DNA of 64,000 nucleotides from an uncultured Alphaproteobacteria bacterium. Its GTDB lineage: Bacteria > Pseudomonadota > Alphaproteobacteria > Rhizobiales > Xanthobacteraceae. Below, one piece after another: positions 15,019-63,195 of the stretch. The number at the start of each line of letters is the position of its first letter. Positions within the stretch are counted from its first letter, which is position 1. The stretch spans positions 1,247,680 to 1,311,679 of the forward strand of contig CAWJPD010000003.1 of NCBI GenBank assembly GCA_963844635.1. The letters run 5' to 3'. The position numbers and the translations under genes were made by a program. Below the pieces are notes generated by a model. That model was given only the letters and a program-made list of their open reading frames with translations. It was not told the DNA's origin and searched no databases.

Positions 15019-15259
15019 GGTCCGGTTAAGGGCCAGCTTGCAGGACCGCCGCACCCGCTGTTTTGACCCACAAACAAGACTTTTCGTGAACGGGTCATCC
15101 CGTTTGGACGAACTGCGCCGACAGCCGGTGTTCCACGAAATCCTTTGCAGGGGCCACGCGGCCATTGTCGCATCGGGAGGAAGTGGGCTGCGGGTGGCGT
15201 TGCAATAGGCTACTGTCCTCGCTTGGACGGACTGCATGCATCCAAGATGGGAGATGAGC

Positions 15260-16180
15260 ATGAATATGCGGTGGCATGTCATTGTGCTCGCGGCATTGAC
15301 GGCATTAGCGACACCGGTATTCGGCCAGGTACCGGCCCCTGCCAGCGGCGGCGCGGAAGGCAACGCATCGATCCCCGATTTGACCGGTTTCTGGGTGCAT
15401 CCATATTTCCCCGGCATTGAGCCGCCCCCATCGGGCGCGGGGCCGGTGTACAACAAGCAACGCCGTGCGAATGGCTCAGGCAATAACGGCCGGTTCGTGG
15501 GCGATTATACCAATCCGATTCTGAAGCCTGCGACCGCTGCCGTGGTGAAAAAGCTCGGCGAAATCTCGCTGTCCGGCATGACTTATCCAACGCCCAGCAA
15601 TCGATGCTGGCCCTCCGGGGTGCCATACATTTTCTTCCAACCTGGCATGGTGATGCTGCAACAGACACATCAGATCGTTTTCCTCTATATGCGGGATCAT
15701 GAATTTCGTCATGTGCGTCTGAACGAGCCGCATCCGGCAAAGGTGACGCCGTCCTGGTACGGAGATTCCGTGGGGCACTACGAAGGCGACACGCTGGTGA
15801 TCGATACCATCGGGGTCAAGGCGGATCGGCCTCTCGCCATGGTCGATATGTACGGCGCCCCTTTCAGCGCAGCGCTTCACGTGGTGGAACGCTATCGGAT
15901 GGTCGATTATGACGAGGCGCAGGCGGCGGTCACGCGCAACCTCAGAGAGAATGCACGTGTTCCCGACACCGCTTCTGATCTCACCTACCAGGGCAAGCGG
16001 CTTCAACTTGTTTTCCGGGTTGAGGATCACGAAGCCTTTACGATGCCGTGGTCCGCGGCGATTACTTACGAGCGTCCGGGACAGGGCTGGATCGAGATCG
16101 CTTGTCCCGAAAACACCTTCGAGTTCTTCGCGGGCAAGAACGACGCCAACGTTCCCATTGCGAACCGACCTGATTTTTAA
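15260..16180 (+). CDS. Exported conserved hypothetical protein
   Basis: Signal peptide MNMRWHVIVLAALTALATPVFGQ. GC3-rich ORF with no recognisable motif. The start could also be 15254 or 15266. Confidence 0.6.
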   Translation: MNMRWHVIVLAALTALATPVFGQVPAPASGGAEGNASIPDLTGFWVHPYFPGIEPPPSGAGPVYNKQRRANGSGNNGRFVGDYTNPILKPATAAVVKKLGEISLSGMTYPTPSNRCWPSGVPYIFFQPGMVMLQQTHQIVFLYMRDHEFRHVRLNEPHPAKVTPSWYGDSVGHYEGDTLVIDTIGVKADRPLAMVDMYGAPFSAALHVVERYRMVDYDEAQAAVTRNLRENARVPDTASDLTYQGKRLQLVFRVEDHEAFTMPWSAAITYERPGQGWIEIACPENTFEFFAGKNDANVPIANRPDF

Positions 16181-32616: not shown

Positions 32617-34397
32617 GTGACCGCGAAATTCGTCGCCGGAATGCTGTCGGGATCGCTGCTTGCGGCAACCGCGCTGACACCGGCCGGCGCCGCCGACATG
32701 ACGACCGACCGCGCGCTCAATCCGCAACGCGAGCCGCAGAACTGGATTCTGCACCATGGCAATTATCAGGGTCACCGATTTTCGCTACTGAATGAGATCA
32801 ACACCGGCACGGCGAAGAACTTGAGGCTCGCCTTCACGGTCGGTCTCGGCGGATTGCAGAGTGGCGGGCGCTACGCCCATGGCAACCTCGAAGCTACCCC
32901 GCTCGTCGAGGACGGCATCATGTACGTGCCGGATGGCTGGGGCGCGGTGTACGCGATCGATCTCACATCCGGCAAGAAGGGCGTGATCAAGTGGAAGGTG
33001 GATCCCGCCATAGACCGCGCTTGGGCCGGCGATGTTGCATGCTGCGGCGTGAACAATCGCGGCGTCGCGCTGTGGAAAGACAAGGTGATCTCGATCTCGC
33101 TCGACGGACGCATGTTCGCGATCAACAAAGCGACCGGTGAGGTCGCCTGGGAGCGCAAGATCGCCGATCCGGCGCTCGGCGAAACTTTGACGATGGCGCC
33201 GTTGATCGTCCGCGACCTCGCGATCGTGGGCCCCGCCGGCGGCGAGTTCGGCATCCGCGGCTTCATCGAGGCGACCGATCTCAATACCGGCAAACAGGCC
33301 TGGCGCACCTACACCATTCCGGGCGCCGGCGAGCCGGGCAATGAAACCTGGAAGGGCGGTCACGAACAGTGGCAGCATGGCGGCGGCTCGACCTGGGAGA
33401 CCGCGACCTACGATGCCGAGATCCGACACGATCTACCAGGGTATCGGCAATGCCGGTCCGGACTTCGACCCCGAATATCGACCGGGCGACAACAAATGGG
33501 CCGCGAGCGTCCTCGCCCTCAACCCGAACAATGGCGAGATCAAATGGGGCTTCCAGTACACCCCGAACGACCCTTATGATTTCGACGAGATTTCCGAGCA
33601 CCCGATCATCAACGCCAAGGTCAATGGCGAAGACCGCAAGCTCGTCGTGCATGCGGCGCGCAACGGCTTTTTCTATGCACTCGATCGCATCAACGGTTCG
33701 TTCGTTGCAGGTAAGCAGTATGTCGACGAACTGAACTGGACGCCGGGCCTCGATCCGAAGACGGGCAAGCCGATAAACTATGATCCCAATCGCGATGTGC
33801 AGGTCTACAATCCGGGCAGCCACGGCTCGCGCGGTCGGCCACTGAGCGACCGGCTGTGCCCGTCGATCACCGGGGGCAAGAACTGGCAGCCGAGCGCCTA
33901 CAATCCGCGGCTCGGGCTGATCTACATCCCCTCGATCGAGGGCTGTGGCCGGATCGAGACCAACGAGCAGGTCGACTTTTTCGACCAGGGCGGCACTTTG
34001 AAGCCGCGCGAACGCTACACTGGTGGCCCGTTCAAAGCGCCTGAGCGCCGCCTTTACGGGGCGCTGAAGGCTGTGGACCCGACTACCGGCGACACCAAGG
34101 CCAACCTGAAGCTCGACTATCCGAACTATGCGGGTGCGCTTGCGACCGCCGGCGACCTCGTTTTCCTCGGTCAAGTCGATGGCACGTTCGCCGCTTATGA
34201 TGCGCGAACGCTGCAGGAGCTGTGGAGCTTCAATGCCGGCACCGGCATCAATGCCCCGCCGGTCGCGTATTGCGGTGAACGGCAAGGAGTATGTCGCGGT
34301 GTTGGTTGGATCGCGACAGCCGAACAACGTGATCCCGTTCGCGCCGGAGCTTAAGAACACATCGCCCGCCTCCATGCTCTACGTGTTCAGCCTTTGA
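32617..34397 (+). pseudogene. PQQ-dependent dehydrogenase, methanol/ethanol family, tandem copy 1; two 1-nt insertions (about 33421 and about 34272)
   Basis: GTG 32617 with RBS AGGGAGGA. Three ORF-track pieces (32617-33579, 33341-34354, 34128-34397) join into a full-length homolog of copy 3. Vicinal VACCGV and PYDFDE motifs are present. Confidence 0.85.
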
Positions 34398-34483
34398 GCC
34401 TACGCCCGGCACCGAGGAACGGCGCCGGTCTACGTCATTCACGAATCGGGCCGAGCGCAAAAGTGCAGAAAGGGAGAAGCATC

Positions 34484-36289
34484 ATGATTGCTCGACGTGT
34501 TGTCGGCGTCGTCGGATTGCTACTGGGCGCGACCGCGCTCACGCCCACCCTTGCTGCCGACATGACCATCGAGCGCGCGCTCAATCCGCAGCGCGAGCCG
34601 CAGAACTGGATCCTGCACCACGGCAATTACCAGGGCCACCGCTTCTCGCTGCTGAAGGAGATCAACACCGAGACTATCGGCAAGAACCTCAAGCCGGCGT
34701 TCACGGTCGCGCTGGGCGGGTTCCAGAGCGGCGGCCGCTGCGCTCAGCGGCAATCTCGAAGCAACGCCGCTGGTCGAGGACGGCATCATGTACGTGCCGG
34801 ACGGCTGGGGCTCGGTCTATGCGATCGATCTCACGGCCGGCAAGAAAGGCATTATCAAATGGAAGATGGATCCCGCGCATCGACCGCGCCTGGGCCGGGC
34901 GACGTCGCCTGCTGCGGCGTCAACAATCGCGGCGTCGCGCTGTGGAAGGACAAGGTGATCTCGATCGCGCTCGACGGCCGCATGTTCGCGATCAACAAGG
35001 CGACCGGCGAAGTGGTGTGGGAGCGCAAGGTCGCCGATCCGGCGCTCGGCGAAACATTGACCATGGCGCCGCTGGTCGTTCGCGATCTCGCCATCGTCGG
35101 CGCCGCCGGCGGCGAGTTCGGCATCCGCGGCTATATCGAGGCGACCGACCTCAACACCGGCAAGGCGGCCTGGCGCACCTACACCATTCCGGGCGCGGGC
35201 GAGCCGGGCAACGAGACCTGGAAGGACGGCAAGGAGCGCTGGAAGCATGGCGGCGGCTCGGTGTGGGAGACCGCGACCTATGACCCGAGAGCCGACACGA
35301 TCTACCAGGGCATCGGCAATGCCGGGCCGGACTGGGACACCGAGTACCGGCCCGGCGACAACAAATGGGCGGCGAGCGTGCTCGCGCTCAGCCCGAACAA
35401 CGGCAAGATCAAATGGGGCTTCCAGTACACGCCGAACGACCCCTACGATTTCGATGAGATCTCCGAGCATCCGATCATCAACGCCAAGGTCAACGGCGAG
35501 GACCGCAAGCTTGTCGTGCACGCGGCGCGCAACGGCTTTTTCTATGCGCTCGACCGCACCAACGGCTCGTTCGTCGCCGGCAAGCAGTATGTCGACCAGT
35601 TGAACTGGACGCCGGGCCTCGATCCCAAGACCGGCAAGCCGCTCAACTACGATCCTAATGCGGACGTCCAGATCTACACCGCCGGCATGCCACGGCATGC
35701 GCGCAAACCCGCAGGGCGGCGAAACTGTGCCCGTCGCATTTCGGCGGCAAGAACTGGGAACCGACCGCCTACAATCCGGAACTCGGCCTGCTCTACATTC
35801 CGACGATCGAGGGCTGCAACACGGTCAACACCGTGGAGCAGAAGGATTTCGCCGACCAGGGCGGCCCGTGAAACCGCGCGAGTATCTTGTGCCGGGCGCG
35901 GGCGGCAACTTCGCCGGCGGCGGTTTCAGACTGTCGGAGCGGCTTTACGGCGGCCTCAAGGCGCGTCGATCCGACGACCGGCGAGATCAAGGCCGGCATT
36001 CGGCTGCCCTACTCCAACTACTCGGGCGCGCTTGCCACCGCCGGCAACCTCGTCTTCCTCGGCCAGGTCGACGGCACGTTCGCTGCCTATGATGCCCGCA
36101 CCTTGCAGGAGCTGTGGTCCTTCAATGTCGGCACCGGCATCAACGCGCCGCCGGTCAGCTATCGCGATGAATGGCAAACAGTACATTGCGGTGCTGGCGG
36201 GTTCGAAACAGTCTCCATTCGTCATTCAGAACGCGCCGGAGCTCAAGAACACCTCGACGGCATCGATGCTGTACGTGTTCAGCCTCTAA
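34484..36289 (+). pseudogene. PQQ-dependent dehydrogenase, tandem copy 2; at least 8 single-nt indels
   Basis: ATG 34484 with RBS AAGGGAGAAG. Homology to copy 3 hops between all three frames at about 34747, 34879, 34898, 35688, 35721, 35868 (creating TGA), 35964 and 36164. Confidence 0.85.
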
Positions 36290-36375
36290 AAGCTCGCCTT
36301 GACGCCGAGCACCGCGCCGTTGCACCTCATTTGCGATGCCGGGCCGCGCGCCGGCACAGAAAGGGAGAAAACGAC

Positions 36376-38151
36376 ATGACTGCGAAACGTTTTGCCGGCC
36401 TCTTCGTCGGATCGCTGCTGGCCGCGACCGCGCTGACCCCCGCGCTGGCCGCCGACATGACCAACGACCGCGAGCTCAATCCGCAACGCGAGCCGCAGAA
36501 CTGGATTCTCCACCACGGTAATTACCAGGGTCACCGCTTTTCGCTGCTGAAGGATATCAACTCCGAGACCGTCAAGAACCTGAAGCCGGTGTTCACGGTG
36601 GCATTGGGCGGCTTCCAGAGCGGGGGTCGTTACGCCTTTGGCAATCTCGAAGCCACTCCGCTCGTCGAGGACGGCATCATGTACGTGCCGGACGGCTGGG
36701 GCTCGGTCTATGCGATCGATCTCACGTCCGGCAGGAAAGGCCTGATCAAGTGGAAGATGGATCCGCAGACTGATCGCGCCTGGGCCGGCGATGTCGCTTG
36801 CTGCGGAGTGAATAATCGCGGCGTCGCGCTGTGGAAGGACAAGGTCATTTCGATTTCGCTCGATGGACGCATGTTCGCGATCAACAAGGCGACGGGCGAG
36901 GTCGCCTGGGAACGTCGTATTGCCGACCCTGCTCTGGCCGAGGTACTGACGATGGCGCCTCTGGTGGTCCGCGACATCGCCATTGTCGGCACCGCGGGTG
37001 GCGAATACGGCATTCGCGGCTTCATCGAAGGCACCGATCTCAACACCGGCAAGCAGGCGTGGCGGACCTACACGATTCCCGGCGCTGGCGAACCCGGCAA
37101 CGAGACCTGGAAGGACGGCAAGGAGCATTGGCGGCATGGCGGCGCCTCCGTGTGGGAGACCGCGACCTACGATCCGCAGTCCGACACGATCTATCAGGGG
37201 ATCGGCAACGCCGGGCCGGACTGGGACACCGAGTACCGGCCGGGCGATAACAAGTGGGCGGCAAGTGTCCTTGCCATCAATCCGAACAACGGCGAGATCA
37301 AATGGGGCTACCAGTACACGCCGAACGACCCTTATGATTTCGATGAAATCTCCGAGCACCCGATCATCGACGCCAAGGTCAATGGCGAGGACCGCAAGCT
37401 CGTCGTGCACGCCGCGCGCAACGGCTTCTTCTATGCGCTCGATCGCATCAATGGGTCATTCGTTGCTGGCAAGCAGTATGTCGACCAGTTGAATTGGACC
37501 CCGGGCCTCGATCCCAAGACCGGCAAGCCACTGAATTACGATCCGGCCGGCGGCGTGCAACTTTACAGTGTCGGCTCGCATGGCACTCGCGCCAATCCGC
37601 AGGGCGGCAAGCTCTGCCCGGCGCATTTCGGCGGCAAGAACTGGGAACCCAGCGCCTACAATCCCCAGCTTGGGCTGCTGTTCATCCCGTCAATTGAGGG
37701 CTGCAATTACGTAGAAACGGTCGAGCAGAAGGACTTCGCCGACCAGGGCGGCGCGCTCAAGCCGCGCGACCGCTTCGCGGGCGGCGGAATCAAAACCCCC
37801 GATCGCCTTTATGGCAGCCTCAAAGCGGTCGATCCGACGACGGGTGAAATCAAGGCATCGCTGAAGCTGACGTACCCGAACTACTCCGGCGCGCTCGCGA
37901 CCGCCGGCAATCTCGTCTTCCTCGGCCACCCGGACGGCGCGTTCACGGCCTACGACGCACGAACGCTGCAGGAATTGTGGAGCTTCAGTGTCGGCACCGG
38001 CATCAACGCGCCGGCGATCACCTATTCCGTCAATGGCAAGCAATACATCGCCGTGCTGGCCGGCTCCAAGCAGCCCAACAACGTGATCCCGCTGTCGCCC
38101 GAACTGAAGAATACTTCCACGGCATCCATGCTTTACGTGTTCGCGCTGTGA
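36376..38151 (+). CDS. PQQ-dependent dehydrogenase, methanol/ethanol family (XoxF/PedH-like, D-x-D type), tandem copy 3, intact
   Basis: ATG 36376 with RBS AAGGGAGA. Signal peptide ...ATALTPALAADM. VACCGVNNRG (vicinal Cys), NDPYDFDEISE, and propeller W-motifs. 591 aa. Confidence 0.88.
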   Translation: MTAKRFAGLFVGSLLAATALTPALAADMTNDRELNPQREPQNWILHHGNYQGHRFSLLKDINSETVKNLKPVFTVALGGFQSGGRYAFGNLEATPLVEDGIMYVPDGWGSVYAIDLTSGRKGLIKWKMDPQTDRAWAGDVACCGVNNRGVALWKDKVISISLDGRMFAINKATGEVAWERRIADPALAEVLTMAPLVVRDIAIVGTAGGEYGIRGFIEGTDLNTGKQAWRTYTIPGAGEPGNETWKDGKEHWRHGGASVWETATYDPQSDTIYQGIGNAGPDWDTEYRPGDNKWAASVLAINPNNGEIKWGYQYTPNDPYDFDEISEHPIIDAKVNGEDRKLVVHAARNGFFYALDRINGSFVAGKQYVDQLNWTPGLDPKTGKPLNYDPAGGVQLYSVGSHGTRANPQGGKLCPAHFGGKNWEPSAYNPQLGLLFIPSIEGCNYVETVEQKDFADQGGALKPRDRFAGGGIKTPDRLYGSLKAVDPTTGEIKASLKLTYPNYSGALATAGNLVFLGHPDGAFTAYDARTLQELWSFSVGTGINAPAITYSVNGKQYIAVLAGSKQPNNVIPLSPELKNTSTASMLYVFAL

Positions 38152-43559: not shown

Positions 43560-43684
43560 TTTTTGCTTGTCACCTGTTGCAATTTTGCAACCACAACTGG
43601 GGGCGAATCGGGCATGTTTGATGCGTCCCTTGTGGACGGATTCCTCCCTCCTTGCCCCGCATACTCGCGGGGCAATTTCTTTTT
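43560..43684 (+). ncRNA. Candidate small RNA or 3'-UTR element ending in an intrinsic terminator, with a CCUCCCUCC motif
   Basis: The TTGCA-N4-TGCAA palindrome (43577-43590) lies upstream. CCTCCCTCC (43643-43651) sits immediately 5' of the terminator stem. Confidence 0.3.
43652..43684 (+). terminator. Rho-independent terminator
   Basis: TTGCCCCGC-ATACTC-GCGGGGCAA followed by TTTCTTTT. Confidence 0.8.
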
Positions 43685-43899
43685 GTGCCGACGACGAGCA
43701 ACGCTGATTGTGGTAAGTCGATGCGCCGTGCCGCCCGCTCGTGACGAGCCGATACGGTGAGAAGGCCGCCGAAATCAGCGCTTCCGTGCCCCCCAATGGG
43801 GCCCTTGATCAATGCCACCTGAAGGCAATATCCTTTGTTCCGTCTGCAAGATGGTCGAAGGAAAACGGATTCCACCACCGCCCTGCAACGGAGGGTTCG

Positions 43900-45627
43900 A
43901 TGAAAGCCGCCACGCGAATTGGAATTGGTGCTACGAGATTATCCTTCGGCGCGATAACGAGCGCGGGCCTGTTGGCTTTGCCGCTCCTGGGCGGCCACCC
44001 GGCGATGGCTCAGAACCACGGCTCGGCGGCGCTGACCGGCACCGTATCCTCCCCGGAAGAAGGAAACATGGAAGGCGTTGTCGTCAGCGCGAAGCGCCCT
44101 GGCTCAACCATCATGGTTTCGGTCAGCACCAATGCGCAAGGACAGTACAGTTTTCCTCAGGATCGGCTCGCCCCGGGCGCTTACGACATCACCATCCGTG
44201 CCGTCGGGTACATACTCAAGCCGACCGCGGCAACGGTAGACTCCGGCGGTCCCACCAAACTCGACATTCGGCTTGCGAAAGCCGCGTCGGACGATCTCGC
44301 CCTTCAACTGTCCAATAGCGAGTGGATGCTGAGCGCACCGGGCACGCCGAGGCAGAAAATTGCGTTGCTGAGATGTCTCGATTGTCACGGCCTGCAGCGC
44401 CCGATGTTTTCCAAGGACAACGCATCGGAAATGACGTTCACGGTGCAACGGATGGGGGCGCATAGTGCCAATGCGTCTCCCAATTTTCCTTTCTTCCATC
44501 AGATTGCGTCCGAGGAAATGAGCCGTCCGCCGACCAAGGGGCAGGCGGATCTGGCGGCCTACATCGCTTCGATCAATCTCAGTTCCGGCGAGACGTGGCC
44601 GTATAAACTGAAGACTCAGCCGCGGCCGACCGGCAAATCAACCCAGGCCATCGTCACGACTTATGATCTTCCTGAGTTGGCCGCGCCGCATGACACGCTG
44701 CGGGACAAAACGGGCAACGTTTGGTTCTCCGATTTCCAGCACCATGTCATCTCGAAACTGGACCCCAAGACGGGCAAGGTCACGCGCTATCCAGTCCCCT
44801 TGTCGAAGCCCGGCTTCCCGACCGGGGGCCTGATGATCACGATGGATAAGGATGGAAACGTCTGGGAAGCCATGATGGGGCAGGCGCAAATCGCCAAACT
44901 CGACCCGAAGACGGAAGAGGTCTCGATCTATCTGGCGCCCGATTGGAACAAAGAGGACACGCGGTTCACGATGATGGACGCCCTTCATTCGGACGTCGAC
45001 GGGAAATTGTGGGCCAAGACCAGCGGCGGCCCCGATCCGGGCCACGCCAACAAACTCTATCAGTTCGACCTCGCCACCAAGACATTCCACGAAGTCCTGC
45101 CGCCGGCCGGAAAGCGCGACATTGCCGCTTATGGACTGGTCACCGATCTCGACAACAATGTCTACGGCCTCGACAACAATCCGGACCAGAAACAGATCTG
45201 GCGCACGAGCGCCAAGACCGGAGAAACAACCTATATCGATCTTCCCCTGGGCGTGGGCGGCGCGAGGCGGGGGCATATCGACTCACAGAATCGCCTGTGG
45301 TTCTCGCAATTCCATGCCAATCGTTACGCGATGTTTGATCCCAAGTCCGGCAAGGTCACGCAATGGGAAGTGCCGGTTGATTATGCAGGCGCCTACGACG
45401 TTCAGTCGGACGATGCCGGATATGCTTGGGGCGCCGATATGAGCACCGACCTCGTTCAGCGGCTCAATGTGGAAACTGGCGAATGGAGCTCGTATCTGCT
45501 GCCGCTTTCCATAAATACGCGGCATATCGACGTACAGAAGAGTTCGAATCCCGGCGTCCTCTCCAGCATGTGGACCGAAGGCCAGCAGAATGGCAAGATC
45601 GTCCACATTGAGCCGCTGACGCCGTAA
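43900..45627 (+). CDS. Secreted protein: carboxypeptidase-regulatory-like domain, single CxxCH heme c motif, beta-propeller (paralog of 61063-62712)
   Basis: ATG 43900 with RBS GGAGGG and a signal peptide. ...GTVSSPEEGNMEGVVVSAKR...NAQGQYSFP... CLDCH at 44374-44388. Repeated propeller-like ...GNVWFSD.../...GNVWEA.../...RLWFSQ... blades. Confidence 0.7.
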   Translation: MKAATRIGIGATRLSFGAITSAGLLALPLLGGHPAMAQNHGSAALTGTVSSPEEGNMEGVVVSAKRPGSTIMVSVSTNAQGQYSFPQDRLAPGAYDITIRAVGYILKPTAATVDSGGPTKLDIRLAKAASDDLALQLSNSEWMLSAPGTPRQKIALLRCLDCHGLQRPMFSKDNASEMTFTVQRMGAHSANASPNFPFFHQIASEEMSRPPTKGQADLAAYIASINLSSGETWPYKLKTQPRPTGKSTQAIVTTYDLPELAAPHDTLRDKTGNVWFSDFQHHVISKLDPKTGKVTRYPVPLSKPGFPTGGLMITMDKDGNVWEAMMGQAQIAKLDPKTEEVSIYLAPDWNKEDTRFTMMDALHSDVDGKLWAKTSGGPDPGHANKLYQFDLATKTFHEVLPPAGKRDIAAYGLVTDLDNNVYGLDNNPDQKQIWRTSAKTGETTYIDLPLGVGGARRGHIDSQNRLWFSQFHANRYAMFDPKSGKVTQWEVPVDYAGAYDVQSDDAGYAWGADMSTDLVQRLNVETGEWSSYLLPLSINTRHIDVQKSSNPGVLSSMWTEGQQNGKIVHIEPLTP

Positions 45628-61062: not shown

Positions 61063-62712
61063 TCAATCCAGCGGCTCGATGCGCACCAAAAATCCCTCGT
61101 GGTCGACATACCAGATGGTGACCGGGTCGGTTGAATTGTCGATCCAGGACTCGCGGTCGTGACCGTAGGGCTCCGGCAGCACATATTCGGTCCACTGCAC
61201 GGTTTTTGGATTGAAGCGCAGATAGCGACCGCCCTGCAATTCGCCGGCCCAGACCTCGCCATTTTTGTCGGCCTTGGCTGTATAGAGCGCCACATAGGGT
61301 GTCGGCACGCGAAATTCGTGAATGCGCTTTTCCGTCGTGTTGAACTCGACAAGATAGCCGCCACGGCCGCCGGACCAATAATTGTCGAAGGGGTCGAACT
61401 CGCCGCGTGCCGGCAGCGTGCCCGGGCTCGTATCCGGCTCGAACACTTCGGCAGTTTCGGTATCGACGACAACGAGACCGTCCCGCGGCCAGGCGCCGCC
61501 GCCGAAATAACGACCGTCATGGCTCATGGCGCTCCCATAGGTGCCCGGGAATTTCTTGAGTTCGTATCCCGTCACTAGCGCCCCTGTGAGGGAATTGATC
61601 TTGGCGACCCTCCTGTCGCGCGCGCGCCACAAGAAGCCATCAGGATCGAACGCGACATTGCCGACCGCGGGCGAGTTCACCGGCTCGAAAACTTTCCACG
61701 GGATGCGCCTGAAATCATCGGAATTGGGATCGAGCCGGTAAATATTATGGGCCCAGTTTTCCGTACCCCAGATGAACCCCTTCGAATCCACATTTATCCA
61801 ATGCGTGCCGGGGAGAACGCCCGGACCTTGCAGCGGAACATGAAACTCCTTGACGACGCCGGTCCTCGGGTCGAGGCGGCCAATATAGGAGCTTCGATGG
61901 GTGCTGTAATAGACGTAGCCCTTTCCGTCGCCCGTAACGTCGTGGGTCGCGACTTCAAGGCGCGGTAACTGGTACTCCGTGACGACCACCCGCGTCTGGC
62001 GTCCCTGCGGCCGCGGCAACGTGACGAAGGGCGGGTCTTTCGAGTCCGGGCCACGCACGGTGGCCAGCCATTTGACGAGCTTCGCTTCGTCGGCGGGCGG
62101 AATTCGGCCCGGCTCGCGGACGTTGATCAGCGGCGAGCCGGCGCCGTGGGTCATGCGGAAAATGATCTTGGCCCAACTCTGCTCATCGTAGCGGTTGCGA
62201 AAAATCTGCTGATAGGAATGGCAGTAATTGCAATTGGTGGTCAGAAGCTTCTTTTCCTCGCCGGTGCCGGACAGGCTTTGCAACCATTCCGACCCGGTCA
62301 GCTGCGCTGCGACCTCCGGCGATGGCGGCAACAGCTCGGAGTTTGACAGGCGCTGCAACACGATATCGTCAAGGTGGGTTGCACCGTCGATCGCAAGGTT
62401 ATCACGGACATAGGCGATGAACTCGAGCGGCCGAGCGATACGCAACAGGTACGACCCCGGATCAAGCCGAGGGAATTCGTAGTGGCCATTGGCATCGCTG
62501 TAGACCGTGGTGCGGATCGCGTTCTTGTGCGAGATCAACTGCACCATGATGCCTTCCAGCAATTCCCCCTTGCTCGATTTGACGATGCCAACGGGGCCGC
62601 CGACCAGCCGTTGAGGCGCCGCGCCAGCCGGCACGCCCGCCAACGTGGCCAGCAACACCAGGGTGGAGATCACGCTCGCAGCACGCAGAATGGGTTTAAA
62701 CAGGCGTATCAT
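61063..62712 (-). CDS. Secreted protein: carboxypeptidase-regulatory-like domain, single CxxCH heme c motif, beta-propeller (paralog of 43900-45627)
   Basis: Signal peptide. ...GIVKSSKGELLEGIMVQL...DANGHYEFP... CNYCH encoded at 62218-62232. Propeller-like repeats. Confidence 0.7.
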   Translation of the reverse strand: MIRLFKPILRAASVISTLVLLATLAGVPAGAAPQRLVGGPVGIVKSSKGELLEGIMVQLISHKNAIRTTVYSDANGHYEFPRLDPGSYLLRIARPLEFIAYVRDNLAIDGATHLDDIVLQRLSNSELLPPSPEVAAQLTGSEWLQSLSGTGEEKKLLTTNCNYCHSYQQIFRNRYDEQSWAKIIFRMTHGAGSPLINVREPGRIPPADEAKLVKWLATVRGPDSKDPPFVTLPRPQGRQTRVVVTEYQLPRLEVATHDVTGDGKGYVYYSTHRSSYIGRLDPRTGVVKEFHVPLQGPGVLPGTHWINVDSKGFIWGTENWAHNIYRLDPNSDDFRRIPWKVFEPVNSPAVGNVAFDPDGFLWRARDRRVAKINSLTGALVTGYELKKFPGTYGSAMSHDGRYFGGGAWPRDGLVVVDTETAEVFEPDTSPGTLPARGEFDPFDNYWSGGRGGYLVEFNTTEKRIHEFRVPTPYVALYTAKADKNGEVWAGELQGGRYLRFNPKTVQWTEYVLPEPYGHDRESWIDNSTDPVTIWYVDHEGFLVRIEPLD

Positions 62713-62724
62713 TCTTCCCTCCTG

Positions 62725-63195
62725 TCAGTGCGCGATGTAGGCGGGATTCGACGGCGGAGTATCCGAATTCCAGCAGCACCGGTCCCGCAGATATCCGATC
62801 AGGTCGTTGAGGTCCGCGTCCGACAATGAATATTTGTACGACGCCATGTTGGCGCTGCCATTGCGAATCTGATTTTTGACCGCTTCTTCGGTCACCGGCT
62901 GTCCGTCCAGCAACGTCGCGTGCTGAAAAAGTCCGGTCAGCTTCGGAACGTCCTTGGTGAATTCGTTATGGCAGAACCAGCATTTGTAATAGAAAATCTC
63001 CTGGCCTCGCGCCGGGCCGTCTTTCGCCGCCTTGCGAAACTCGTATATTTGCAACGATCGCTGGTCATAGTCCTTCGCCGGCGCCGCCGGCGGGGCGCTG
63101 ACGGCCGGCTGGGCGAGAGCCGCACCGCGCATCGAACCAGCGGCGGCCAGCCCGGCGCACACCAGGACGGCGGCTGCGATCCGCTTTCTTACCAT
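62725..63195 (-). CDS. Mono-heme c-type cytochrome, exported
   Basis: ATG 63195 with RBS GGGAGGGG. Signal peptide MVRKRIAAAVLVCAGLAAAGSMRGAALA. CWFCH encoded at 62968-62982. Confidence 0.75.
   Translation of the reverse strand: MVRKRIAAAVLVCAGLAAAGSMRGAALAQPAVSAPPAAPAKDYDQRSLQIYEFRKAAKDGPARGQEIFYYKCWFCHNEFTKDVPKLTGLFQHATLLDGQPVTEEAVKNQIRNGSANMASYKYSLSDADLNDLIGYLRDRCCWNSDTPPSNPAYIAH

What the first reader, a model, noticed from the sequence alone, without database searches (positions are those of the whole stretch)
43900..45627. Uncharacterised periplasmic redox-protein family: Ig-like domain, one heme c site and a beta-propeller
This protein and its paralog at 61063-62712 share the same architecture and colinear conserved blocks:
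- G.V.S..G...EG..V...(N/D)A.G.Y.FP...PG.Y
- L..SEW..S..GT...K.LL..C..CH
- ...T.Y.LP......HD......G.V......
A covalent heme next to a propeller suggests a catalytic oxidoreductase rather than a lyase-type propeller. I do not recognise a characterised member. This copy stands alone, after a candidate regulated sRNA/terminator region.
Basis: partly seen in the sequence, partly recalled or inferred. Interest (0 to 1): 0.62.

Follow-up and report, generated by a model that had tools for sequence, protein, structure and literature searches.

The report
Uncharacterised haem-c propeller protein family
The gene encodes an exported protein that joins a covalent-haem module to a seven-bladed propeller. 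It belongs to a large, unstudied family, automatically labelled "virginiamycin B lyase", that this soil-bacterial genus carries in about 20 copies per genome and that most likely passes electrons to small cytochromes c.

Summary
Window 43900-45627 (+) encodes a 575-aa protein and 61063-62712 (-) a colinear 549-aa paralogue (27% identity, E 1e-43).

**Architecture.** Both have a Sec-type signal, a CarboxypepD_reg beta-sandwich, a short helical module with one CxxCH (their only two cysteines), and a seven-bladed propeller.

**Conservation.**
- CxxCH and a Met 22 residues later are invariant in 35 diverse homologues.
- 105 of 112 cluster representatives that span the site keep the motif.

**Closest known.** The propeller's nearest solved fold is Vgb lyase (TM 0.87-0.89). 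Vgb's blade 6/7 catalytic positions are replaced, and a different pocket (His-Asp, Tyr, Arg, Tyr, Arg) is conserved instead. No database or paper assigns a function. "Virginiamycin B lyase" is an automatic label.

**New here.**
- The genome has 22 family loci, and all 15 other sampled species of the genus have 14-35 matches.
- No full-length copy turned up in 150 other genomes of the order.
- Two small cytochrome c types occur in this genome only beside family genes (one precedes the paralogue by 12 nt) or fused to them.
- pqqB and pqqC are absent, so PQQ is not supported.
- Close orthologues are under purifying selection and appear in soil metatranscriptomes.

**Best reading (0.5).** A periplasmic redox enzyme wired through its own haem to cytochromes c. 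Substrate and any second cofactor are unknown.

The parts
43652..43684 (+). Intrinsic-terminator-like hairpin plus T-run. It closes the upstream unit, so the gene at 43900 starts its own transcript.
   Evidence: Scan (9-bp stem, 7 GC pairs, tail TTTCTTTTTG); sequence.
43890..43895 (+). Shine-Dalgarno GGAGGG, 4 nt before the ATG at 43900.
   Evidence: Sequence read.
43900..45627 (+). Gene for the 575-aa haem-c/propeller protein (P0001).
   Evidence: dN/dS is 0.14-0.24 against 7 orthologues.
43900..44010 (+). Sec-type signal peptide (residues 1-37, ending AMA; no twin-arginine motif).
   Evidence: Read from the translation. This stretch has low pLDDT. No signal-peptide predictor was available.
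44026..44274 (+). CarboxypepD_reg (transthyretin-like) beta-sandwich, residues 43-125.
   Evidence: Pfam PF13620, E 3.8e-12, 46.8 bits against a cut-off of 32.3. Strands in the model.
44287..44574 (+). Helical cytochrome-c-like module, residues 130-225.
   Evidence: Seven helices at pLDDT about 91. A profile of the module weakly matches the haem modules of the quinohaemoprotein amine dehydrogenase alpha subunit (1jju E 5.7e-4, 1jmx E 1e-3) and cytochrome c 3a9f (E 0.01).
44374..44388 (+). CLDCH haem-c attachment motif (C159, C162, H163).
   Evidence: Invariant in alignment A1. These are the only cysteines in the protein. 105 of 112 representatives carry the motif.
44452..44454 (+). Met185, the probable sixth haem ligand.
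   Evidence: Invariant in 35/35 homologues and 15/15 paralogues. It aligns with the ..RM.. of the amine-dehydrogenase haem modules and of 3a9f. The ligand role is inferred.
44647..45615 (+). Seven-bladed Vgb-fold beta-propeller, residues 250-572. The conserved pocket residues at the starts of inner strands are H264-D265 (44689-44694), Y411 (45130-45132), R456-R457 (45265-45270), Y499 (45394-45396) and R541 (45520-45522).
   Evidence: Foldseek top hits are 2z2n/2z2o/2qc5: E 8e-20, TM 0.87-0.89 on the target, 16-17% identity. Strand map, conservation, coordinates.
61063..62712 (-). Paralogue P0002 (549 aa) with the same architecture. Its CNYCH motif is at 62218-62232.
62725..63195 (-). Small class I cytochrome c gene (156 aa from ATG 63195; the open frame runs up to 63315; CWFCH at 62968-62982). 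Its stop lies 12 nt before the P0002 start, which has its own GGAGGG. It is the probable electron-transfer partner.
   Evidence: Pfam Cytochrome_CBB3 1.1e-8 and Cytochrom_C 4.6e-6. NCBIfam cytochrome c6-like. Spacing. This cytochrome type occurs in the genome only at family loci and is fused to a P0002-like protein elsewhere.

Best explanation
P0001 is an exported (periplasmic) c-type haemoprotein.

**Shown from sequence and model**
- The protein has a beta-sandwich, a compact helical module whose single CxxCH binds haem c, and a seven-bladed propeller descended from the Vgb-lyase fold.
- The propeller's conserved central-face pocket (His264-Asp265, Tyr411, Arg457, Tyr499, Arg541) differs from the Vgb active site.

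**Inferred**
- His163 is the proximal haem ligand and the invariant Met185 the distal one.
- The pocket binds and converts a small, probably anionic, substrate.
- The six-coordinate His/Met haem acts as a built-in one-electron relay, not as the catalytic centre.
- Electrons pass between this haem and soluble class I cytochromes c, and so to the aerobic respiratory chain. Some paralogues encode their own cytochrome c just upstream or fused; the stand-alone copy at 43900 would use a general one.
- The likelier direction is substrate oxidation (a dehydrogenase), as in quinohaemoproteins.
- About 20 divergent paralogues per genome suggest many different substrates.

**Unknown**
- The substrate.
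- Whether the pocket holds an extra cofactor loaded in the periplasm.
For: **Haem site**
- CxxCH and Met185 are invariant.
- The motif cysteines are the only cysteines in the protein.
- The signal peptide is Sec-type.
- CcmE of the haem-attachment system is present in the genome.
- The haem module resembles electron-transfer haem modules over the CxxCH...RM stretch.

**Structure**
- The three-domain model is confident, with pTM 0.89.

**Pocket**
- Tyr411, Arg457, Tyr499 and Arg541 are invariant, and His264/Asp265 are kept in 13 of 15 paralogues of this genome, down to about 25% identity.
- These residues sit at the starts of the inner strands of blades 1 and 4-7. That is the usual active-site face of propeller enzymes.

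**Cytochrome partners**
- A small cytochrome c lies 12 nt upstream of P0002.
- The same cytochrome type is fused to a P0002-like paralogue at C1:366871-368976 and in four loci from three other species of the genus.
- A second cytochrome type sits upstream of two more paralogues.
- All 4 strong hits to these two cytochrome types in the 6.6-Mb genome are at family loci.
- Adjacent small cytochromes also occur at foreign loci L045, L051 and L068.

**The gene is functional**
- dN/dS is 0.14-0.24.
- Contigs from soil metatranscriptome runs cover the gene or close orthologues.
Against: - No redox centre other than the haem is identified. Nothing shows how a one-electron haem would be coupled to substrate chemistry.
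- Only 4 of 22 loci here, and about 3 of 81 foreign loci, have a dedicated cytochrome c.
- There is no conserved operon that hints at a pathway.
- Foldseek found no known cytochrome fold for the haem module on its own.
- The propeller's ancestry is that of a non-redox lyase.
- The metatranscriptome evidence rests on assembled contigs and may include DNA carry-over.
Confidence: 0.5

Rival explanations
1. A non-catalytic cytochrome. The propeller is only a docking or binding module for a protein, polymer or mineral surface, and the haem shuttles electrons without any chemistry happening in the propeller.
For: - No second redox cofactor site is recognisable.
- The haem has the invariant Met expected of a pure electron carrier.
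- Some copies have dedicated cytochrome partners, as in electron-transfer chains.
- Beta-sandwich plus propeller is a common build for binding proteins (Pfam hits).
Against: The ring of His-Asp, Tyr, Arg, Tyr, Arg stays invariant on the canonical active-site face across paralogues that share only about 25% identity. That fits a small-molecule site better than a docking surface, which should vary between 22 paralogues.
Confidence: 0.2
2. A true Vgb-like C-O lyase or lactonase acting on a periplasmic substrate, with the haem being structural or regulatory. This is the automatic annotation 'virginiamycin B / streptogramin lyase'.
For: - Pfam Vgb_lyase scores above its cut-off for P0001 (59.9 against 50).
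- Vgb is the best fold match.
- JGI names homologues this way.
- Haem-less propeller-only relatives annotated 'lyase' exist on Ralstonia megaplasmids.
Against: - NCBIfam Vgb(A)/Vgb(B) models score 26-42 bits against a cut-off of 600.
- Vgb's catalytic site lies in blades 6 and 7 (PMC8916777; the H270A variant is inactive, per the entry title). In blade register, His228 corresponds to the invariant Tyr499, the His270 position is variable, and the Glu268 position is not acidic.
- The protein is exported, has three domains and carries an invariant haem site.
- A genome would have little use for 22 paralogues of an antibiotic lyase.
Confidence: 0.08
3. A non-redox haem protein in which the haem acts as a sensor or chaperone for the propeller. 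The precedent is the non-canonical cytochrome c TfcP, which stimulates calcium binding by the propeller protein PilY1 (PMC8833165).
For: There is a literature precedent for a cytochrome c serving a propeller protein without a respiratory role (title and abstract seen).
Against: - No output or signalling domain is present.
- There is no pilus or regulator context.
- The dedicated and fused class I cytochromes point to electron transfer.
Confidence: 0.05

Closest known systems
Virginiamycin B (streptogramin B) lyase Vgb (PDB 2z2n, 2z2o, 2z2p, 2qc5; Pfam PF24684)
   Same: Both have a seven-bladed propeller with the same blade motif (..P-x-x-I-T..D-G..W-F..). Vgb is the best fold match (E 8e-20, TM 0.87-0.89 on the target). 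Pfam scores above its cut-off for P0001.
   Different: - Vgb is a cytoplasmic, single-domain protein of about 300 aa, is Mg2+-dependent and has no haem.
- Only 16-17% identity.
- Vgb's blade 6/7 catalytic positions are not kept.
- Here the propeller is the C-terminal part of an exported three-domain haemoprotein.
Haem-binding modules of the quinohaemoprotein amine dehydrogenase alpha subunit (PDB 1jju, 1jmx; Pfam PF09098) and the 92-aa cytochrome c of PDB 3a9f
   Same: They share a short module with CxxCH followed about 20 residues later by ..W...(I/V).RM... The profile E-values are 5.7e-4, 1e-3 and 0.01. Five of 20 family members hit PF09098 weakly.
   Different: - The similarity covers only about 30-40 residues and is below any curated threshold (TIGR03908: 15.6 bits against 274).
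- The amine dehydrogenase alpha subunit has two haems and no propeller.
- Foldseek with the isolated module found no significant PDB match.
Cytochrome cd1 nitrite reductase NirS (haem-c domain plus eight-bladed propeller holding haem d1)
   Same: The design principle is the same: a periplasmic enzyme with an N-terminal c-haem relay attached to a propeller that carries the active site, fed by small cytochromes c (established knowledge; abstracts seen).
   Different: - NirS has eight blades and a haem d1 cofactor.
- There is no sequence or Pfam relationship.
- Here the propeller has seven Vgb-type blades and no known cofactor.
Quinohaemoprotein alcohol dehydrogenases and cytochrome-linked six-bladed PQQ dehydrogenases
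   Same: A propeller dehydrogenase carries its own cytochrome c domain or an adjacent one and passes electrons to the respiratory chain (10.64898/2026.07.10.737718).
   Different: - Those are PQQ-dependent 8- or 6-bladed folds.
- The family here shows no PQQ-repeat hits.
- pqqC is absent from this genome and from about 23 of 29 family-bearing genomes, and pqqB is also absent here.

Membership tests
Vgb / streptogramin B lyase (functional family) | Seven-bladed beta-propeller of the Vgb type | tested here: met
   Foldseek E 8e-20, TM 0.87-0.89 on the target. PF24684 scores 59.9 bits against a cut-off of 50 for P0001, but only 37.5 for P0002.
Vgb / streptogramin B lyase (functional family) | Score over the curated NCBIfam Vgb(A)/Vgb(B) cut-off | tested here: not met
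   25.7-42.4 bits against a cut-off of 600.
Vgb / streptogramin B lyase (functional family) | Conserved polar catalytic and Mg2+-site residues in blades 6 and 7 (His228, Glu268, His270 of S. aureus Vgb; the residue numbers are from my memory of Korczynska 2007, the blade location from PMC8916777) | tested here: not met
   This is a blade-register mapping against pieces of the 2qc5 sequence printed. The His228 position is the invariant Tyr499. The His270 position (residue 542) varies as H/R/S/E/D/N. No acidic residue sits at the Glu268 position. The mapping is approximate because no residue-level structural alignment was available.
Vgb / streptogramin B lyase (functional family) | Single-domain cytoplasmic enzyme | tested here: not met
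   The protein has a signal peptide, a beta-sandwich and a haem module ahead of the propeller.
c-type cytochrome (covalent haem protein) | CxxCH motif conserved among homologues | tested here: met
   Invariant in 35/35. Present in 105 of 112 representatives. A fused subfamily has a conserved CX3CH variant instead.
c-type cytochrome (covalent haem protein) | Export to the periplasm and presence of a haem-attachment system | tested here: met
   The N-terminal signal is Sec-like by inspection. CcmE is present at C3:808926-809216, 122 bits.
c-type cytochrome (covalent haem protein) | Haem actually attached, with a His/Met-ligated spectrum | not testable with these tools
   This needs expression, haem staining and spectroscopy. 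Only the invariant Met185 supports it.
c-type cytochrome (covalent haem protein) | Recognisable cytochrome c fold or family model | tested here: inconclusive
   No Pfam cytochrome model passes its threshold. There are weak profile hits to the amine-dehydrogenase haem modules and 3a9f. Foldseek with the isolated module finds nothing.
Quinohaemoprotein amine dehydrogenase alpha subunit (QhpA) | Di-haem N-terminal domain and a score over the TIGR03908 cut-off | tested here: not met
   There is a single CxxCH, and the score is 15.6 bits against 274.35.
PQQ-dependent quinohaemoprotein dehydrogenases | PQQ-type propeller and co-occurrence with PQQ supply | tested here: not met
   No PQQ Pfam hits. 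pqqC is absent from the window's genome and from about 23 of 29 family-bearing genomes. pqqB is absent here. PQQ scavenging cannot be excluded.
SMP30 / gluconolactonase / LRE (PF08450) | Score over the Pfam cut-off and a six-bladed metal-dependent lactonase propeller | tested here: inconclusive
   P0001 scores 39.2 bits against a cut-off of 26.3, but P0002 only 17.4. The model has seven blades, and SMP30 structures align worse than Vgb (TM 0.59-0.60 on the target against 0.87-0.89).

The most novel reading that the evidence does not exclude
The invariant His-Asp / Tyr / Arg / Tyr / Arg ring on the propeller holds a redox centre that has not been described before and is loaded in the periplasm. 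It could be a mononuclear metal-tyrosinate site with an Arg-anchored anion, or a second non-covalent tetrapyrrole as in cd1 nitrite reductase. The family would then be a new class of respiratory dehydrogenases or reductases wired through its own haem c to cytochromes c. The 14-35 copies per genome in this soil genus would reflect diversification over many trace substrates of soil.
Probability: 0.2. Interest if true: 0.85.

Novelty: new variant of a known kind. Interest (0 to 1): 0.58.

Why it matters
**Scale of the family**
- 7,568 clusters at 50% identity match at E<=1e-3, and 295 at E<=1e-30.
- 564 of the 599 candidate stretches that a capped scan of species-representative genomes turned up encode a relative.
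- The 80 best are all from uncultured-genome assemblies (MAGs), mainly Xanthobacteraceae, Acidobacteriota and Burkholderiales, most from soil and some from groundwater, lake or marine samples.

**Why the annotation matters**
- Public annotation calls these proteins antibiotic-resistance lyases. That label is almost certainly wrong and would inflate resistance-gene counts in soil surveys.

**What it could mean biologically**
- If the proteins are cytochrome-c-linked redox enzymes, a genus that devotes about 20 genes to them, alongside a high-affinity hydrogenase and lanthanide-type alcohol dehydrogenases in the same window, may be using them to harvest electrons from an unrecognised set of soil compounds.

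**Where to start experimentally**
- The natural operon (cytochrome c plus P0002) and the natural fusion give a direct, testable entry point for biochemistry.

Tried and rejected
1. **PQQ as the propeller cofactor: not supported.** pqqC is missing from the window's genome and from about 23 of 29 family-bearing genomes, and pqqB is missing here. Scavenged PQQ cannot be excluded.
2. **A conserved operon partner: none found.**
   - Clustering the neighbours of 81 foreign loci gave no partner.
   - The commonest neighbours were TctC receptors (16 loci), an unknown 312-aa secreted family 'c2' (11 loci) and DUF6152 (7 loci).
   - In the window's genome, c2 has about 196 ORF hits. Nine lie within 6 kb of family loci, against 9.0 expected by chance. 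The adjacency is therefore chance.
3. **Fold of the haem module alone.** The model is good (pLDDT 91), but Foldseek against PDB found nothing significant.
4. **Whole-architecture match in PDB: none.** The best query coverage is TM 0.47, which is the propeller only.
5. **Plasmid collection.** It holds only haem-less propeller 'lyase' genes on Ralstonia and Paraburkholderia megaplasmids. No annotated full-length relative was found there.
6. **Literature.** Three full-text searches found no paper on this architecture. The primary Vgb structure paper (PMC1965523) is not held, so the residue numbers come from memory and the blade location from PMC8916777.
7. **Failed tool call.** Alignment A1 was too diverse for the search for related loci. 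A narrower alignment, A2, was used instead.
8. **Haem-to-pocket distance: not obtained.** Model coordinates are not exposed by the tools.
Full report
**What is in the sequence**

The frame at 43741-45627 (+) is open. The start at ATG 43900 is supported in two ways:
- A GGAGGG Shine-Dalgarno lies at 43890-43895.
- More than 100 homologue clusters have exactly 575 residues.

The product (P0001) begins with a Sec-type signal ending AMA and has no twin-arginine motif.

Pfam finds two domains:
- CarboxypepD_reg at residues 45-125.
- A Vgb_lyase/SGL-type propeller in the C-terminal part (matches between residues 250 and 495 of a propeller that runs to about 570).

The second gene, at 61063-62712 (-) (P0002), has the same hits. 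It aligns with P0001 from end to end at 27% identity, E 1e-43. Each protein has exactly two cysteines, and both belong to the CxxCH.

**Is the haem site real?**

Several lines say yes:
- In 35 full-length homologues of 26-45% identity, C159, C162, H163 and M185 are invariant.
- Of 112 50%-identity cluster representatives whose match spans the region, 105 carry CxxCH. The seven exceptions are short, probably partial, sequences.
- 13 of 15 intact paralogues in the window's own genome carry the motif.
- The genome encodes CcmE of the System I haem-attachment machinery.

The invariant Met lies 22 residues after the His, in a conserved ..RM.. context. It aligns with the same feature in the haem modules of the quinohaemoprotein amine dehydrogenase alpha subunit (1jju E 5.7e-4, 1jmx E 1e-3) and in the 92-aa cytochrome c of 3a9f (E 0.01). 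I read this as a six-coordinate His/Met haem, which is the signature of an electron-transfer haem rather than a catalytic one. This is an inference.

The module has no Pfam family of its own. Modelled alone at pLDDT 91, it has no significant Foldseek match in PDB.

**Structure**

AlphaFold2 on the 35-sequence alignment gave pLDDT 90.5 and pTM 0.89. The model has three parts:
- A beta-sandwich at residues 43-125.
- A seven-helix module at 130-225.
- A conserved linker (..PRPxGxAT..) leading into a seven-bladed propeller at 250-572.

Foldseek against PDB puts virginiamycin B lyase first (2z2n, 2z2o, 2qc5; E 8e-20, TM 0.87-0.89 on the target, 16-17% identity). These matches cover only the propeller (TM about 0.47 on the query), so no solved structure has the whole architecture.

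**Is it a Vgb lyase?**

By descent of the propeller, yes. By function, almost certainly not:
- The curated NCBIfam Vgb models score 26-42 bits against a cut-off of 600.
- Vgb binds substrate and Mg2+ at polar residues of blades 6 and 7 (PMC8916777), and H270A is catalytically inactive (PDB title).
- In blade register, the Vgb His228 position is the family's invariant Tyr499. The His270 position is variable (H/R/S/E/D/N). The Glu268 position is not acidic.

The family instead conserves its own set. Tyr411, Arg457, Tyr499 and Arg541 are invariant, and His264-Asp265 are present in 13 of 15 paralogues, even in copies that share only about 25% identity. These residues sit at the starts of the inner strands of blades 4, 5, 6, 7 and 1. 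That places them around the mouth of the central channel, where propeller enzymes usually have their active sites.

Two arginines in the ring argue for an anionic ligand rather than a bare metal cation. Sec export, with no Tat motif in any aligned N-terminus, argues against cofactors assembled in the cytoplasm. Both points are inferences.

**Evidence for electron transfer**

P0002 is preceded by a 156-aa class I cytochrome c gene at 62725-63195 (Pfam Cytochrome_CBB3 and Cytochrom_C; cytochrome c6-like in NCBIfam). The gap is 12 nt and P0002 has its own Shine-Dalgarno.

Elsewhere in the genome the same association recurs:
- At C1:366871-368976 the same cytochrome type (45% identity) is fused in frame to a P0002-like protein (52% identity).
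- The fusion recurs at four loci in three other species of the genus.
- A second small cytochrome type (CGVCH...GTPRMP) lies directly upstream of two more paralogues.
- HMMs of the two cytochrome types find four strong hits in the whole 6.6-Mb genome, and all four are at family loci.
- Among 81 foreign loci, small cytochromes c directly abut the family gene in L045, L051 and L068.

This gene-fusion and neighbourhood evidence is the strongest pointer that the built-in haem exchanges electrons with soluble cytochromes c. It is still a minority pattern: 4 of 22 loci here. The copy under review has no cytochrome of its own.

**Distribution**

The family is very large:
- 7,568 clusters at 50% identity match at E<=1e-3, and 295 at E<=1e-30.
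- 564 of the 599 candidate stretches that a capped scan of species-representative genomes turned up encode a relative. The 80 best are all from MAGs of Xanthobacteraceae, Acidobacteriota (Terriglobia, Vicinamibacterales), Burkholderiales and other Proteobacteria.

The window's genome holds 22 loci. About eight are split by frameshifts, which fits the indel-prone assembly noted by earlier readers.

The expansion is specific to the genus:
- All 15 other species of the genus have 14-35 matches, and a sister genus has 5.
- In 150 other genomes of the order, no full-length copy was found. Nine of them had propeller-only matches.

A quick tree places P0001 with Xanthobacteraceae orthologues, inside a well-supported clade that also holds seven Acidobacteriota sequences. 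These are closer to P0001 than its own-genome paralogues are. P0002 and the fused copy form a separate deep branch. The paralogues are therefore old, and the family has moved between phyla.

Two further observations show the gene is functional:
- P0001 orthologues at 69-85% identity give dN/dS of 0.14-0.24.
- Contigs of three soil or environmental metatranscriptome runs cover the gene. One run has pieces that are 99-100% identical, and another has a 1,221-nt contig at 94%.

**What did not work out**
- No conserved operon partner exists beyond the occasional cytochrome. The apparent link to an unknown 312-aa secreted family is chance, because that family has about 196 ORF hits in this genome.
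- PQQ is not supported.
- Literature searches found no study of this architecture.
- Earlier agents of this scan met the same family in other genomes and reached the same 'uncharacterised haem-c propeller' reading. I treat those notes as leads, not as independent support.

**Verdict**

However, the propeller is of the lyase lineage, and catalysis remains to be shown.

The most likely mechanism (confidence about 0.5) has three steps:
- A substrate is bound at the conserved His-Asp/Tyr/Arg pocket.
- The His/Met haem acts as a relay.
- Soluble class I cytochromes c are the redox partners, probably in the dehydrogenase direction.

My confidence by step:
- About 0.9 for a covalent-haem exported protein.
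- About 0.55 for a cytochrome-c-linked redox enzyme.
- About 0.35 for the direction of electron flow.

The substrate and any additional cofactor are unknown.

Noticed in passing
window 15236-16180 (+); about 196 ORF hits across the own genome: An unknown secreted family of about 310-330 aa is hugely expanded in this genome: about 196 stop-to-stop ORFs hit its HMM at E<1e-10. It has no Pfam, NCBIfam or PDB sequence match. It looks like another lineage-specific extracytoplasmic family on the scale of the TctC receptors, which have 77 hits.
   Followed up: partly
own genome C1:366871-368976 (outside the window); L094, L095, L096, L097: In the subfamily where a class I cytochrome c is fused to the haem-propeller protein, the internal haem motif is CG(E/N/S)GCH. 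This is a CX3CH variant, conserved in 5 of 5 loci from four species. It is therefore not an assembly error.
   Followed up: partly
window 32617-38151, and the whole genome: The genome (94% complete) has no pqqC and no pqqB, although the window encodes three PQQ-type alcohol dehydrogenases. The organism may depend on PQQ made by others.
   Followed up: partly
own genome, e.g. C4:190523-192845, C3:1425846-1427568, C13:50816-52922, C14:228547-230335: About 8 of the 22 family loci are split over two or three frames or contain in-frame TGA codons. These are either pseudogenes or the same indel errors that earlier readers suspected in thrC and the PQQ genes of this window.
   Followed up: no
L085:2590-4950: A 786-aa protein lies next to a family gene in a Xanthobacteraceae MAG. 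It also begins with a CarboxypepD_reg-like sandwich and a single CIGCH, but continues with a different and longer C-terminal region. It may be a sister architecture.
   Followed up: no
plasmid records H2-H25 (Ralstonia and Paraburkholderia megaplasmids): Propeller-only relatives without the haem module (matching residues 254-561, about 27% identity) occur on Ralstonia solanacearum-group megaplasmids, annotated 'lyase' where they are annotated at all.
   Followed up: no
window 43643-43684: CCTCCCTCC lies directly before the terminator hairpin upstream of the gene. I confirmed only the hairpin and T-run.
   Followed up: partly
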